Source: Anaeromyxobacteraceae bacterium (GTDB lineage: Bacteria; Myxococcota; Myxococcia; Myxococcales; Anaeromyxobacteraceae). Taken from it: a stretch of DNA of 64,000 bases. Of this stretch, positions 37,201-43,200 are shown one piece after another. How positions within the stretch are numbered: position 1 is the stretch's first letter; the number at the start of each line of letters is the position of its first letter. A program made the position numbers. The stretch lies in contig JASGHJ010000002.1 of assembly GCA_047602405.1 (NCBI GenBank), positions 3,552,001-3,616,000 on the forward strand, in the 5' to 3' direction.

Positions 37201-40200
37201 TCGAGCCGCCAGCGGCGCGCGCCGCCGTCGCGATCGCCGGTCACGAGCGTGCGCCCGTCCGGCGAGAACGCGAGCGCGAGCACCGGCCCCGGGTGCTCGA
37301 GCGCGCCGACGTCGAGGCCGGTGTCGGCGTCCCAGAGCCGCGCCACGCCGTCGGCGCCGGCGCTCGCGAGCGTGCGGCCGTCGGGCGAGAAGGCGATCGC
37401 GTTGACGCCGCCGGCGCCCGCCTCGACCGCGCGCTCGGCGAGCACCTCGAGCCGCGCGTCGTAGGCGATCTGGGGGTCCTCGCCGTGCATCGCGAGGAAG
37501 GTCAGGAACGCGAGGACCGAGAGCGCGGCCGCGGCGAGCACGCCGAGGAAGGTCCACTGGGCCCGGTTCATGAGCACGCCGGCATGGTGCACCGGGGGGC
37601 GGCGTGAAAGCCAGCGCGCCACCTCGCAGCCTTGGCCGCCTCGACGCTCAGCGCCGCAGGTGCGTGCGCAGCACCTCGGGCGGGACCGGGACCTCGAGCG
37701 CGTCGGGCCCGTCCGGCGGGCCGTCGGGGCCGGGCGCGGGGCGCAGCGCCGCCGCGACGCGGTCGAGCGCGGCGTCGGCCGCGGCGCTGCCGGTGGTGCC
37801 GGCGCGCGACACGGCGGGCGGCGCACCGGGCGCGAAGCCGATCCTCAGGTGCACCGCCTGGCGCGGGAGATCGGCCTCGGCGAGCCGCACCCCGACCCGG
37901 AACCGGAGCGTGACCTCGCGGGCCAGCGCCTGCGCGCGCTCCTCCCGCGGCGAGCCGGGCTCGCGGTCGACGAGCGCGGCCTCCCCGGCGAGCCCCTCGT
38001 CGAGCGCGACGCACTCGAAGGCCTCCCCGGCGAGCTCCTCGCGCCGGGCCCGGTGCCAGCGCTCCCGCCACGCCGCGCGCCCCGCGGCGTCGGCGGCGAG
38101 GCGCCGCTCCAGCCCGAGCCGCGCGAGCACGAGGGTGGCCTCGCTGAAGCCGCTCGTCACCGGCGTGGTCTGCGCCGACATGATGGAGGCGACCGCGCAC
38201 TCGTGGACGGCGCCGAGCGTGTGCCCGAGCTCGTGGAGGAAGGCGACGTCCTCGAGGTGCTCCCGGGCCGCGGCCCGCACCGCCTCGCGCTCGGCGGTGG
38301 TCAGCTGGTCGAGCGCGACGTTCACCGCCTGCACGTCCTCGGCGTCCTCCGGGGCGGTCACGAGCATGTGGCGGGAGAAGAGCGGCGCGAGGCCGGTCGG
38401 GTCGAGGAAGCCGCCGCTCCGCTGCCGGCCGACGTACCCGATCACCCAGTCCGCGCCGTCCCCGGGATCGTCGAGCACGAGCTCGTCGACCGCGGCCCGG
38501 AGCCCGGCCTTGAGCGCGACCCGCTCCCACGGCTCGATCGAGGCGAGCTCGAGCCGCACGCCGAGGTCGGGGCCGAGGAGCGCGTTCACCCGCTCGAGCT
38601 GCGCCGGGATCCGCTCGCGCCAGGCCTTCACCTGGGCGCGGTAGTCGGCGTCCACGTGCACGCGGACCCGGTACGCCCGCGCGGGCGCGCCGGGGGCGCT
38701 CCGGGCGCGCAGCCCGGCCGGGCGCGTCGCCTCCACGGCCTCGCGCTGGCGCGAGGTGCGGCTCCAGGAGCAGCCCGCGGCGAGCGCGAGGACCGTGCTC
38801 CCCGCGAGCGCGGAGGCGGTGCTCCCGGCGAGGAGGAGCGCGGCGGCGAGGCGCCTCGGGGCCATGAGCGTCCATGGACGCCCGGAGCGCACCCGGCGTC
38901 AAGCCCCTCCCGGCCGGGCCGGCCGTGCGCCCGGCCGGATCACACCCCGTACTTCTCGCGGAGCCGCCGCGAGGCCGCGACGGCCTGGGCGAGCTTCGCG
39001 GTGGCGAGCCGCGCGGAGGCGATGGGGTTGTCGGCGAAGGTGGCGAACCCGCAGTCGGGGTTGAGGAGCACGCGCTCCGGGCCGAGCACCCGGATGGCGC
39101 GCTCGGCACGCTCCACGATCACCTCGGCGGGCTCGACCTCCTCCTTCTTCTGGTTCACGACGCCCACGCCGACCCGCACCTCGCGCGGCAGCCCGGCGAG
39201 GACCTCGACGTCGCCCGCGCGCGGCGTCGCGAGCTCGAGGAAGAGCGTGCCCACCGGCGCGCGCGACAGGAGTCCGAGGAGCGGCCGGTAGTCGCCCGAG
39301 AGCGCGACCGACTCGTCGGGCGTCCAGTTGCCGCGGCACATGTGGAGCGCGAGCCGCTCCCGCGGGAAGCCGGCCGCGACCTCCGCCAGGAGCCCCTCCG
39401 CGAACGCGAGCTCGACGTCCGCGTCGCCCTTCGCGTCGAGCACGCCGCACATGAAGGTGCGGTTGCCGGTGACGCTGCCGCCGAAGACCACCTCGGAGAG
39501 GATGGGCTCGTCGAGCTGCACGAGGGCCGCGCCGCCGGCGAGGAGGTCCTGGATCTCCTCGCGGAGCACGCGGACGAGGTCCTTCGCGAGCGCCGCGCGG
39601 TCCGCGTAGAAGCGGTCGGAGATGCACTCCATCCACATGGTGCGCGCGAGGAGGTAGGGGCCGGGGAGCGCGACCTTCACCGGGCGGTCGGTCTCGGTCC
39701 GGACGAAGGCGAGCTCGTGGGCGGCGAGCGGGCGGGCGCGGCGGAGCGGGCCCATCACCGCCGGGTGGCGGACCTTCGCGGCGGGGACGTCGAGGCTCCT
39801 GAGCTCCCGCTCGAACTCGACCGGATCGTCGACGTAGGCGAGGAGGTCGGTGAGCGGGACGAGCTGGCAGTTCTCGAGCCGGGCGCCGACGAAGGAGGCG
39901 TAGTTGTCGCGGCGCTGCTCGCCGTCGGTGACGACGTCGACGCCGGCGTCGAGCTGGCCCTTCAGCGCGAGCCGGACGGCGTCGTCGGCGGACTCCTCGA
40001 AGGCGGGTTCGGGGAGCCTGTTCTCGAGGCGGGCGTGGAGGGCGTCGAGGAGCCAGCGCGGGCGGGGCCAGGAGCCGACGCCGAGGACGGACAGGGGACG
40101 GACGGGGGGGACGGAGCCGGAGAAGGGGACGGAGACGGAGGCGGAGACGGAGGCGGAGGCCGATCCGGATCCGACTCCGACTCCGACTCCGGATCCGACT

Positions 40201-43200
40201 CCGACTCCGATTCCGCCTCGGAGCCCTCCCTTCGCCACCAGGAACCTGTACCTCCCCTCCCCCCTGCTCTCCGAGACGAGCTCGTTCCCGGTCATCCGGC
40301 ACCACGCCGGGAGGTCCTCGCAGACCGACGACTCCGACGAGCGGATCTCGAGGAGCTGGCCCGGGTCGAGCGGGTCGATGTGCTGCCGGATGAGCAGGAG
40401 CAGTCCGCTCCCGCAGTCGAGCGTCCCGCCGTCGAAGCTGGCGGCGGGGCGAGCGGGGGCCTCGCCCCCGGCCAGCGGGTGCTTCGTCCCGGAGGTCATG
40501 TCGCGCGCGCCCTAGTACGAGATGCTGGTCGCGCCGGACGCGAGGAACTCGACCACCTTCGCGCCGCCCACGATCGTCGCCCCTTCGACGAGCTTCGCCT
40601 CGTCGAGCTTGCGCTTCTTGTAGCAGGGCGAGCAGACGAGGATCTTGCCGCCCGCCTTCGCGAAGTTGGTCATGAGCTCCACGAGCGGCGCGAAGCCCTC
40701 CTCGTGGATCTGCTCGGCGTAGCCCTTCTCGGCGAGGCGGGCGGCCTCGGTGGAGAGGAACACGACCGTCTCCTGCGCCGAGGCGACGGAGGCGTTCGCG
40801 ACCACGAAGCCGACGGTGGCCTTGTCGGGGTCGTTCTTCGCGTGGGTGATGGAGACGAGGATCTTGGCCATGGCGACGTCCTTCCCGATGCTCAGGATTT
40901 CCTGCGGATGAAGTAGTGGGGTGGCTCCGCGCGGACGAGCGCGTTGCCGGTGAGGCGGCACCAGGCGGGGATGTCGTGGGGGGCGCCCGCGTCGCGGGTG
41001 GTGAGCTGGAAGACCTGCCCCGGCGCGAGGGCGCGCAGCTTCATCATGAGCTCGAAGACGAGCTCACCGCAGCCCATGTCGCCCGCGTCCCAGCTGCCCG
41101 CGGGCGTCGATTCCTCGGCCATCTGCCGGCTCCACCATCCGTGCGCGGGCGTTCACCCGCGCGTCCGACGACCCATCCCCGCTGCTCGTTGGGAGGCGCA
41201 CGGCCCCCCGGCCTAGCGGCCGGCGGGCTCGAGGGGGGATCGGGACTGGATGGTCTTTTCGGGCAGCACGGCGAGCATCGGCAGACAGCCTACACGAGGT
41301 CGCCGGGCTATTCCTTGACCACGAGCACGTGGATCGCCTTCACCACGAGCTTCACCGAGTCGCCCGGCTTCAGCGCGAGGTCCTCGGCGGACTCGACCGT
41401 CATGACCGACGCCATCCTCGCGGGCGCCGAGACGTCGAGCTTCACCTCGCACATGATGCTGCCCTTCTTCACCTCGGTGACCTTCGCCGTGAGCTGGTTG
41501 CGCGCGCCGTACTTCATGGATGGCCTCCATTCGACAGCGGGGTGGATCCGCGAAGCATAAGCGTCATCCGTCGAGGATGCGCTCCTTTCCGGCGTAGACG
41601 TTCATCCCGGTCCCCCGGACGAAGGCCGCGAGCGTGAGGCCCGACTGGGTGGCGAGCTCCACCGCGAGCGACGTCGGCGCCGACACCGTGGCGACCACCG
41701 GGATCCGGGCCTTCGCGGCCTTCTGGACGATCTCGACGCCGGCGCGGGAGGAGACGGTGAGCATTCCCGGCTGCGGCACCGGCTGGCCCGCCCGCCGCGC
41801 CTCGAGCTGGGCGACGAGCAGCGCGCCCACCACCTTGTCGACCGCGTTGTGGCGGCCCACGTCCTCGTGGGCCGCGAGGAGCGCGCCGTCCCTCCCCCAC
41901 AGCGCCGCGACGTGCGCGCCGCCGGTGCGCTCGAAGACCGGCTGGTTCTCGCGCAGCCGGTCGATCCGCGCGGTGAGCTCGGAGGCCGCGACGGTGAAGC
42001 CCGGCTCCGGGCGCGGGAGATCGCAGAGGAGATCGGACACCGCCTGGCGTCCACAGACGCCGCACGCGGAGGAGGCCGCGAAGGGGCGGCGCGCGCCGTC
42101 GAGCCGGGAGAGGTCGAGCTTCGGCGAGGAGGACGGCGCCACCTCGACGAGGTTGCCGTAGCCCTCGTCGTCGGGCCGGCCGCAGTGGTAGACGGCGGCG
42201 ACGTCGTCGGCCGAGGCGATGATCCCCTCGGCGAACAGGAACCCGAGCGCGAGCTTCTCGTCGTCGCCCGGGGTCCGCATCAGCACGCCGACGGTCTCGC
42301 CTCCGACGCGGATCTCGAGCGGCTCCTCGACGGCCACGAGGTCGCGCGCGGCGCCCGGCGCGCGCCCCGGCGCGGCGCGGCCGCGGCGGAGCACGTCGAC
42401 CTCGGCGAGCCTCGCGCGCGGCGACGGCAGCCGCTCATCCGACACGGCGCGGACCTCCCGGGCCGGGCACGACGGCCCCGGAGTCCGGCCCGCCCGCGTC
42501 CGGCGTGCGCTTCACGGCGACCTGGTCGGTCACGACCTCGAACGCGCCGATCACGTGGCCGGCGGGGTCGCGCAGCGGCACCGCGGTGTAGAGCACGTGC
42601 AGGTCCAGCCCCTCGGGGTGGGCGTCGGTCTCGCTGTTGACCTCGCGGTCCTGGCGCATGGCCCGCGCGGCGGCGCAGCCGGCGGAGCGGCAGTCGCCCA
42701 TCCGGAACCCGTCGTAGCAGCGGGTCCCCACGAGCTCCGCCTGGGAGCGGCCGAGCAGCGTGGCCCCGGTCTGGTTCATGTAGCGGATGGTGAAGTCGGG
42801 CCCGATGATCATCGCCGGCGCCGGCATGACGTCCAGGTGGTGCACGAGCGTCTCGAGCGTGGCGTTCACGCCCTCGAGGGCCGCGCGGTACGCCCCCTGG
42901 AACGCCTCGGGCTTCGCGCGCTCGGAGAGCCGGCCCTCGACCGCGGCGTGGGCCAGGCGGTCCATCTCGGCGACGAGCCGGGTGAGCTCGCCCTTCGCGT
43001 CCTGGAAGCTGTGGGTGAGCTCGTCGTGCTCGCCGCGGGGCGCGACGTCCACCGAGAGCTCGCCCTTCGCGATGGCGTCCGCGCCGCGGGCGACGTCGTG
43101 CAGGTACGCGATGGTGCCGCGGAAGGCCTCGGCGAGCCGGCCAATCTCGTCCTTCGAGCGGAAGGTGACCTCCTGGCGGAGGTCGCCCTGGGAGATGCGC

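What a model noticed while it worked through the whole genome (the two positions that open the first line are those of the whole stretch)
38940..41122. TusA-fused core methionine synthase in a TusA-DsrE sulfur-relay operon
g05404 is a folate-domain-less (core) MetE-type enzyme with a TusA sulfur-carrier domain fused in front, transcribed after a free TusA (g05406) and a DsrE (g05405). The three-gene set is conserved across phyla and defines an unlisted core-synthase family whose thiol substrate is probably delivered on protein carriers (methylation or demethylation of carrier-bound sulfur or selenium) rather than free homocysteine.
Evidence so far: Fusion in 79 of 80 GTDB loci (Myxococcota, Burkholderiales, Planctomycetota, Acidobacteriota, Rokubacteria and others); of 73 loci with enough upstream DNA 68 have DsrE and 66 a second free TusA; a PhnCDE-type ABC transporter in 33-38 of 80. 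Zinc ligands H-x-C, E and C are invariant in 120 of 120 homologues, as is the TusA Cys (D-C-G) and two extra Cys. Below the cut of all methionine-synthase models. TusA and DsrE do not occur in the text of PMC7857596 (find, call 218); searches 58 and 99 found nothing relevant.
(Added by a program. Inside this text positions count along the whole contig: contig position 3,552,001 is position 1 of the stretch shown here. "Call 12" and the like, gene names such as g00115 and contig names such as C1 are that model's own, and its searches are not shown. The text may have been shortened before it was handed on; [...] marks where a part breaks off. The agent that wrote the report below was given it as the finding of a first reader that could run no searches.)

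Follow-up and report, generated by a model that had tools for sequence, protein, structure and literature searches.

The report
Selenium-scavenging operon with MetE-like enzyme
Three neighbouring genes encode two small cysteine carrier proteins and a zinc enzyme of the methionine-synthase type; their company, a selenium-sensing leader in close relatives and a selenocysteine form of the enzyme suggest an undescribed way for bacteria to recover selenium when it is scarce.

Summary
The three genes are real and conserved (intact fusion 78/80 loci, DsrE 70/80, free TusA 68/80). The evidence points to selenium scavenging. (1) In close relatives the operon follows a 12-codon leader ending in UGA plus a SECIS-like hairpin (12 copies, 10 genomes); the same leader precedes putative selenate-ABC, YedE and YedF genes. 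This window's copy has lost its UGA. (2) The extra Cys351 is an in-frame UGA in unfused relatives (3 genomes at DNA level; 120/120 database proteins end there), a selenoprotein missing from a 2026 catalogue. (3) All 94 carrier-genome tests found SelD or SelA; enrichment is significant in Planctomycetota, not in a random Burkholderiales sample. (4) The optional importer has an HtxB-type pocket fitting selenite. Best mechanism (inferred): carrier-held methyl-selenium methylates homocysteine, and the freed selenium passes via TusA/DsrE to SelD.

The parts
41187..41278 (-). Degenerate copy of a selenocysteine-sensing leader: short ORF 41213-41278 holding the conserved I-Q-S-R-S-P-L-E stretch, hairpin 1 (41210-41221) and SECIS-like hairpin 2 (41191-41209); the ribosome-binding site and the UGA of relatives are lost here
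   Evidence: (E 6e-21; this copy was in the model's training set)
40892..41122 (-). Free TusA-family carrier, 76 aa; C18 aligns with the catalytic Cys of E. coli TusA but the motif is C-G-E/D; C18 67/67, C55 68/68
40512..40871 (-). DsrE-family protein, 119 aa, invariant C80-x-x-C83 (70/70)
38940..40499 (-). TusA::core-MetE fusion, 519 aa (whole gene)
   Evidence: (pLDDT 88.6)
40227..40448 (-). Fused TusA domain (residues about 18-91), D-C29-G motif; orthologous to the TusA of TusA::OsmC fusions in unfused systems (48-62% identity)
40101..40226 (-). Low-complexity Gly/Ser/Val linker; predicted disordered at residues 96-113
38940..40100 (-). Single-barrel MetE catalytic domain: Zn ligands H386, C388, E422, C483; amino-acid pocket S143, E194, D330
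39447..39449 (-). Codon of Cys351 (F-M-C-G, mobile loop after strand 326-330); UGA/selenocysteine in unfused relatives
39624..39626 (-). Codon of Cys292, found only in the fused clade (79/79, against 0/72 and 0/19 unfused rows)

Best explanation
A selenium-scavenging module. SHOWN (sequence level): an operon of carrier TusA, CxxC DsrE and a TusA-fused zinc MetE core with an intact homocysteine/methionine pocket and an extra loop cysteine that is selenocysteine in relatives; in close relatives it follows the same UGA+SECIS-like leader as putative selenium-uptake genes. INFERRED, about 80%: the leader represses the operon when selenocysteine can be inserted, so the operon serves selenium acquisition and feeds SelD. 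INFERRED, about 45% overall: methylated selenium (methylselenol from dimethyldiselenide, methylseleninate or seleno-amino-acid breakdown) is caught on a carrier or on Cys351 as Cys-S-Se-CH3. Zinc-bound homocysteine takes the methyl group and gives methionine. The remaining Cys-S-Se(-) passes through the fused TusA, free TusA and DsrE to selenophosphate synthetase, with the DsrE CxxC (OsmC in sister systems, Cys292 here) re-reducing the carriers. The optional HtxB-like importer would feed selenite into the same relay.
For: Leader: ribosome-binding site, start codon varying among GTG/CTG/TTG/ATG, 12 codons, UGA, hairpin with G-first loop 20 bases on; before tusA in 12 copies in 10 genomes, and before TIGR04553 putative selenate-binding proteins (6), YedE (2), YedF (1) and a double-cubane reductase (1), all above cut-off where scanned; 92% paired cells, 6 compensatory cells, 0/500 shuffles. 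Read-through runs over the next gene out of frame in 8 of 13 intact copies. Selenocysteine: in-frame TGA at Cys351 in 3 Planctomycetota genomes; 120 of 120 best hits of P0190 end right before it; Tissierellia cluster 8 ends and 6 read-throughs as W of 14 listed. Genomes: SelD or SelA in 50/50, 9/9, 12/12, 23/23 carriers; Planctomycetota SelD 23/23 vs 87/128, Fisher p 0.0006. Neighbours: selA, selB, trxB, cysteine desulfurase and a UGSC selenoprotein in Paracoccus; selA/selB/selD within 10 kb in 4 of 80 loci; SenA directly after the unfused form in 5 of 80. Pocket invariant 199/199. Importer pocket: HtxB residues kept, third-oxygen ligands restored, 30/30. Precedent: selenium-starved Methanococcus induces a methyl-selenide demethylation locus and a TusAD system (PMC11097638).
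Against: No biochemistry; the methyl donor is a guess. In this window and its nearest relative the leader has lost its UGA and ribosome-binding site. The leader model found nothing outside the Anaeromyxobacter-type loci among 68 sources. In a random Burkholderiales sample there is no significant enrichment: SelD 7/9 vs 185/242, SelA 4/9 vs 66/242 (p 0.27), either 9/9 vs 185/242 (p 0.22); selenium genes are common in all three phyla tested and kin are not independent. The pocket triad is also kept in distant uncharacterised MetE-like proteins, so it shows an amino-acid ligand, not which one. The importer pocket fits selenite better than a methylated anion, so it does not supply the methyl donor. 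Some unfused forms sit with sulfonate-type importers or coenzyme M genes. Thiol attack on selenium is chemically faster than on the methyl carbon (own knowledge). SECIS-like hairpins after the enzyme's own UGA also occur in Cys-encoding genes, so they are weak support.
Confidence: 0.45

Rival explanations
1. Same selenium-scavenging role, but the seleno-amino acid itself (selenomethionine, selenohomocysteine or methylselenocysteine) binds in the pocket at the zinc. Cys/Sec351 takes its methyl or selenium, and the carriers take it away.
For: Pocket intact; MesD was crystallised with selenomethionine at the zinc (PMC7857596 section 11); all the selenium evidence applies equally.
Against: The conserved importers are oxyanion types, not amino-acid importers. 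Breaking the C-Se bond at the gamma carbon would leave an adduct on the enzyme; demethylation alone needs a methyl sink, and none is conserved nearby.
Confidence: 0.27
2. A sulfur enzyme: a back-up methionine synthase taking methyl from a carrier-bound sulfur compound, or an enzyme that builds homocysteine from carrier persulfide and an activated homoserine. The selenium links would be incidental.
For: Only PF01717 protein in the genome; TusA, DsrE and rhodanese are classical sulfur carriers; SsuA/TauA-type importers and coenzyme M genes near some forms; Price et al. imagine a protein-bound methyl donor for MesD.
Against: MetH is present. No cobalamin or SAM riboswitch at gathering score in 22 loci or the window region. 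No methionine genes among conserved neighbours. The UGA leader shared with selenium-uptake genes is not explained.
Confidence: 0.13
3. One reading: the thiol or selenol acceptor is delivered on the carrier proteins and free homocysteine plays no part.
For: The carrier is fused to the enzyme in 78 of 80 loci; carrier-linked homocysteine is known from Wolinella (recalled; one search gave only a listing).
Against: The amino/carboxyl-binding triad is invariant and is broken in a control thought to use a non-amino-acid thiol; the carriers have no C-terminal Gly-Gly.
Confidence: 0.07
4. Detoxification: methionine methylates carrier-bound selenide, or the system handles an organo-arsenic or other metalloid compound.
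For: Multi-cysteine proteins and selenocysteine occur in arsenic and mercury systems (PMC13188914); a phosphonate-type pocket could take methylarsonate.
Against: An importer sits inside the operon in 30-34 of 80 loci; the leader predicts shut-off when selenium is plentiful; no ars or mer genes among conserved neighbours.
Confidence: 0.07

Closest known systems
Core methionine synthases MesA-MesD (PMC7857596; MesD structure 3RPD)
   Same: Single MetE barrel, H-C-E-C zinc site, S/E/D amino-acid pocket, no folate domain, partner protein thought to carry the methyl group.
   Different: About 21% identity to 3RPD; below all NCBIfam cut-offs; extra Cys/Sec351 loop; TusA fusion; TusA/DsrE/OsmC/rhodanese partners; no DUF1852 or corrinoid protein among conserved neighbours; host has MetH.
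SdmABC methyl-selenide demethylation of Methanococcus (PMC11097638, passages)
   Same: Induced by selenium starvation; strips methyl from selenium onto a thiol; a TusAD system is induced alongside.
   Different: Corrinoid-dependent, coenzyme M as acceptor, archaeal; the system here has no corrinoid protein and keeps a homocysteine pocket.
YedE-YedF and TIGR04553 putative selenium-uptake systems
   Same: TusA/DsrE-type carriers; co-occurrence with SelD; share the same UGA leader in this bacterial family.
   Different: No MetE-like enzyme; the binding protein here is HtxB-like and scores 72.7 vs cut-off 250 on TIGR04553.
HtxBCDE hypophosphite importer (PMC5700983, PMC6629693, passages)
   Same: W52, P71, Y97, T129, S130, R178, D206 kept in 30/30.
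   Different: N128 is S and F158 is H, the PtxB-type ligands of a third oxygen; no phosphorus-oxidation genes among conserved neighbours.
Epoxyalkane:coenzyme M transferase (identity of the control gene recalled)
   Same: MetE core with zinc ligands.
   Different: Lacks two of the three pocket residues; 22% identity.
SECIS-like element of the E. coli selAB leader (recalled) and leader-peptide attenuators
   Same: Selenocysteine machinery used to set expression.
   Different: Here a translated 12-codon ORF ends in UGA; read-through often overlaps the next gene out of frame.

Membership tests
Core (folate-independent) methionine synthase | MetE catalytic barrel without folate-binding half | tested here: met
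Core (folate-independent) methionine synthase | Zinc ligands H-x-C, E/D, C | tested here: met
   199/199, 199/199, 199/199, 198/198
Core (folate-independent) methionine synthase | S/E/D homocysteine pocket | tested here: met
   199/199; control lacks two
Core (folate-independent) methionine synthase | No other domain in the protein | tested here: not met
   TusA fused; definition in PMC7857596 section 4
Core (folate-independent) methionine synthase | Methylates homocysteine | not testable with these tools
   needs an assay
MesA/MesB/MesC/MesD | Score above a methionine-synthase model cut-off | tested here: not met
   all 10 NCBIfam hits below cut-off
MesD | MesX (DUF1852) partner | tested here: inconclusive
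   not among conserved neighbours; genome not searched for DUF1852
Epoxyalkane:CoM transferase | Altered pocket and alkene monooxygenase context | tested here: not met
TusA sulfur carriers | N-terminal catalytic Cys | tested here: met
   aligns with E. coli TusA; 67/67 and 197/197
TusA sulfur carriers | C-P-x-P motif (recalled as canonical) | tested here: not met
   C-G-E/D-L and C-G-x-G instead
Selenoprotein family (relatives) | In-frame UGA aligned to a conserved Cys with conserved sequence beyond it | tested here: met
Selenoprotein family (relatives) | SECIS after the UGA | tested here: inconclusive
   G-first hairpins 26 bases on in 2 of 3, second-position G at 18 in the third; similar hairpins in Cys forms
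Selenoprotein (this window's gene) | UGA at the site | tested here: not met
   TGC
TIGR04553 putative selenate ABC | Binding protein above cut-off | tested here: not met
   72.7 vs 250; a true member lies elsewhere in this genome

The most novel reading that the evidence does not exclude
A cobalamin-free methyl-selenium demethylase in which a loop Cys/selenocysteine and TusA/DsrE carriers stand in for the corrinoid: it salvages selenium from methylated forms for SelD, is switched by a ribosome-read UGA leader, defines a new selenoprotein family, and in Burkholderiales comes with a dedicated selenite importer.
Probability: 0.4. Interest if true: 0.9.

Novelty: new variant of a known kind. Interest (0 to 1): 0.76.

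Why it matters
The in-vivo selenium donor for SelD is still not settled (PMC13188914), and no dedicated selenium transporter was known as of PMC11097638. This operon gives testable candidates for both, in culturable bacteria such as Paraburkholderia, Duganella, Paracoccus and Anaeromyxobacter. It would add a bacterial route for recycling methylated selenium, a fifth kind of core MetE chemistry, and a selenoprotein family absent from the 119-family table of the 2026 review. Databases annotate the selenocysteine forms as truncated 218-224-residue proteins.

Tried and rejected
Complex prediction of the TusA domain on the MetE domain with zinc: no verdict. SelD co-occurrence in Burkholderiales: not discriminating. 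The TAG stops in G392, G595, G551 and the TGA in G689 and G611 flagged are not at the Cys351 site, which reads TGC there; non-canonical recoding rejected. No selenocysteine in 80 metagenome loci of the unfused form: all TGC/TGT. Viral contigs: no relative. Riboswitches: none (only tRNA-Sec in L067). Sigma-70 promoter scan: none. Atlas searches of two unknown inserted genes: no family. Leader-model hits L239, L240, L252, L255 are coding-sequence look-alikes and L256 lacks the hairpins; L241-L250 (E above 1e-5) were not examined. A generic UGA-hairpin scan gave 19 of 105 upstream regions against 3-10 in shuffles; 10 of the 19 are the Anaeromyxobacter-type leader. The careful tree did not finish; the quick tree was used. 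Distances from Cys351 and Cys292 to the zinc could not be measured (no coordinates returned). Haft and Tolstoy 2025 was not held. Literature searches showed no paper on this system.
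Full report
OBSERVATION. The minus strand carries TusA (40892-41122), DsrE (40512-40871) and a 519-residue TusA::MetE-core fusion (38940-40499), 20 and 12 bases apart. The fusion is below the cut-off of all 10 methionine-synthase models it touches. It folds confidently (pLDDT 88.6, linker disordered), and its best structural matches are MetE and MesD. Of 80 best GTDB loci, 78 hold both domains in one ORF, one has a stop in the TusA part and one is cut by a contig end; DsrE is in 70 and free TusA in 68. A PhnCDE-type importer is inserted in 30-34 of 80, mostly Burkholderiales, and a second DsrE-like gene occurs in at least 28. 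The genome has MetH, SelD with a UGA, SelA, SelB and tRNA-Sec, none near the operon; SelU was not found. The fusion is its only PF01717 protein.

THE ENZYME. Price et al. (PMC7857596; I read the abstract, sections 4, 11, 21 and found passages) name the residues that bind homocysteine's amino and carboxyl groups. They align to S143, E194 and D330, invariant in 199 of 199 fused homologues (80 loci plus 119 proteins), as are the zinc ligands. The triad is also kept in distant uncharacterised MetE-like proteins, so it does not name the amino acid. Two extra cysteines are invariant. Cys351 lies in a mobile loop after strand 326-330; by topology this is the catalytic face (inference, distance not measured). 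Cys292 is confined to the fused clade: 79/79 against 0/72 and 0/19 unfused rows.

A WIDER FAMILY. Unfused relatives keep pocket, zinc site and F-M-C motif (Cys in 80 of 80 metagenome loci). They occur as TusA-DsrE-TusA::OsmC-MetE; as OsmC with an Rv1679-like dehydrogenase and an Rv1680-like binding protein; and as rhodanese-MetE-OsmC. That rhodanese can stand in for TusA and DsrE fits an atom-carrier role. OsmC-like hits occur in only 2 of 80 fused loci, so Cys292 may replace it (inference). A quick tree of 60 rows puts all these forms in one group (SH-aLRT 90) and the fused ones in a clade (100); long branches make the outgroups unsure.

SELENOCYSTEINE. The Cys351 position is an in-frame TGA in three Planctomycetota genomes, followed by 163-168 conserved codons. 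All 120 best hits of the 220-residue protein P0190 end in T-F-M just before the site; named ones are Desulfofustis and Desulfocapsaceae. The search window of 121-385 residues excludes most full-length forms, so this shows how many truncated forms exist, not their share. In a Tissierellia cluster 8 of 14 listed members end there and 6 read W. Table 1 of the 2026 review PMC13188914 (section 7 parts 1-2 of 3 read, whole table) lists 119 families and no MetE-like one; 'MetE' and 'homocysteine' occur 0 times. deep-Sep (PMC12013277, term search only) has none in its main text. I saw passages only of the Haft and Gwadz preprint. Haft and Tolstoy 2025 was not held, and no supplements were read; lists there could hold this family. 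The window's own gene has TGC.

GENOME CONTEXT. Carriers with SelD or SelA: 50/50 chosen loci (SelD 49, SelA 46; 50 of the 80 loci were given), 9/9 in a Burkholderiales sample of 251, 12/12 in a sample of 251 from the window's phylum (SelA), and 23/23 in a Planctomycetota sample of 151 (SelD). The sets overlap in a few genomes. Backgrounds are high. Planctomycetota 23/23 vs 87/128, p 0.0006; own phylum 12/12 vs 171/239, p 0.04; Burkholderiales not significant (SelD 7/9 vs 185/242; SelA 4/9 vs 66/242, p 0.27). Kin are not independent. Among 29 chosen Burkholderiales, SelA is in 22/22 with the importer and 3/7 without. These tallies include unpublished genomes G024 (carrier), G073 and G462 (background); removing them changes no conclusion. 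Locally, 4 of 80 fused loci have selA, selB or selD within 10 kb; selD lies about 3 kb from the operon in G092 and G223. The Paracoccus ferrooxidans locus has selA and trxB directly after the fusion, with selB, a cysteine desulfurase and a UGSC selenoprotein upstream; L067 adds tRNA-Sec. SenA follows the unfused enzyme in 5 of 80 loci, with SenB/EgtD in 4.

THE LEADER. Upstream of tusA in Anaeromyxobacter-type loci lies a strong ribosome-binding site, a start codon that varies (GTG, CTG, TTG, ATG) at a fixed place, 12 codons (x-x-x-I-E-S-R-S-P-L-E-x, with synonymous changes), UGA, a 4-pair hairpin and a second hairpin whose loop begins with G 20 bases after the UGA. That is bacterial SECIS geometry (recalled). 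Pairs hold in 92% of cells with 6 compensatory cells (the structure was drawn from these sequences, and they are related). A model built from 14 copies hit 36 of 141 genomes of the order. I examined 29 loci. Twelve intact copies in 10 genomes precede tusA-dsrE. Ten precede other genes: 6 putative selenate-binding proteins (4 scanned, above the TIGR04553 cut-off; 2 by 79-97% identity), 2 YedE (one with CGA for UGA), 1 YedF, 1 double-cubane reductase. Two are degenerate and 5 are false or broken hits. One intact copy is in this genome, before its TIGR04553 gene (C1:791610). Read-through overlaps the next gene out of frame in 8 of 13 intact copies and stops after 10-33 codons in 5, which fits an off-switch when selenocysteine is available (inference). 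Against: this window and its nearest relative have lost the UGA and the binding site while keeping peptide and hairpins, and the model finds no copy in other phyla.

THE IMPORTER. The binding protein is closest to HtxB (E 1e-81). Seven HtxB pocket residues are kept in 30/30, but N128 and F158 are S and H, the residues that bind the third oxygen in PtxB (PMC5700983, passages). HtxB takes a mono-protonated three-oxygen anion through D206/R178 (PMC6629693, passages). Hydrogen selenite fits this; bisulfite and phosphite do too (inference).

MECHANISM. Selenium scavenging is well supported (about 0.8). The chemistry is inferred. Methyl transfer from carrier-held methyl-selenium to zinc-bound homocysteine uses every conserved feature, runs in the favourable direction (own knowledge: weaker C-Se bond, more stable selenolate), and explains why the importer is optional, since volatile methyl-selenium needs none. 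Methanococcus does the equivalent with a corrinoid system induced by selenium starvation, along with a TusAD system (PMC11097638, passages). SelD itself often has selenocysteine at its selenium-binding site, so a selenoprotein in a salvage route is no paradox. The main rival has the seleno-amino acid itself in the pocket.

NOVELTY. It works like a core methionine synthase with a protein-borne methyl donor, but is not a member of MesA-D. Searches of the held library showed no paper on the operon; subscription journals are mostly not held. Earlier notes of this scan describe the module, its selenium link and its selenocysteine form and UGA leaders before selenium genes on other DNA. I tested the first three here; I found the leader before reading. 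None of the notes shown links such a leader to this operon.

Noticed in passing
L219:4390-8651 (G000 C1:788389-792650): Putative selenate ABC system in the same genome: ATPase ORF with a C-terminal part resembling the selenium-associated LysR (below cut-off), two PhnE-like permeases, an intact UGA leader, then a TIGR04553 binding protein.
   Followed up: partly
L081:8502-9071: A UGSC selenoprotein annotated as two hypothetical genes; reads through one in-frame stop at the U-G-S-C motif.
   Followed up: yes
L150, L153, L176, L192, L068, L079: Rv1679-like acyl-CoA-dehydrogenase-fold and Rv1680-like binding-protein genes accompany the enzyme; the free TusA also resembles the N-terminus of the Rv1681 radical SAM family. 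Suggests a shared, unstudied module.
   Followed up: partly
L086, L090, L115, L119, L121: Coenzyme M synthesis genes (XcbA, ComA, XcbC) lie just after the unfused enzyme and OsmC.
   Followed up: no
L081:9475-10581 and 14 of 30 loci: A transglutaminase-like gene often precedes the operon.
   Followed up: no
L075:7844-9913; L067; L034: An unknown membrane protein and a secreted 505-residue protein stand where the importer usually is; no family found.
   Followed up: partly
L075:6671-7048 and at least 27 other loci: Second DsrE-like gene before or after the operon in Burkholderiales.
   Followed up: partly
L233:102-1373: A double-cubane-cluster reductase gene carries the same UGA leader.
   Followed up: no
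L015, L017, L020, L023, L029, L031, L035, L037, L038, L046: Short shared motif (C-G-T-A-G-A-C-T-like) 26-52 bases before the estimated tusA start; promoter or regulator site unknown.
   Followed up: no
window 41308-42445 (-): TOBE/Mop and FdhD genes upstream on the same strand; not among the conserved neighbours of the operon.
   Followed up: partly
L136, L138, L141, L143: YqeC selenium-cofactor gene about 6 kb upstream of the unfused enzyme.
   Followed up: no
L061 (L183:8694-8930): In-frame stop inside the fused TusA domain in a locus beside selD and selA; error or pseudogene not resolved.
   Followed up: no
window 40130-40220: Gly/Val/Ser low-complexity linker with short repeats; gives only chance microRNA-model hits.
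   Followed up: partly
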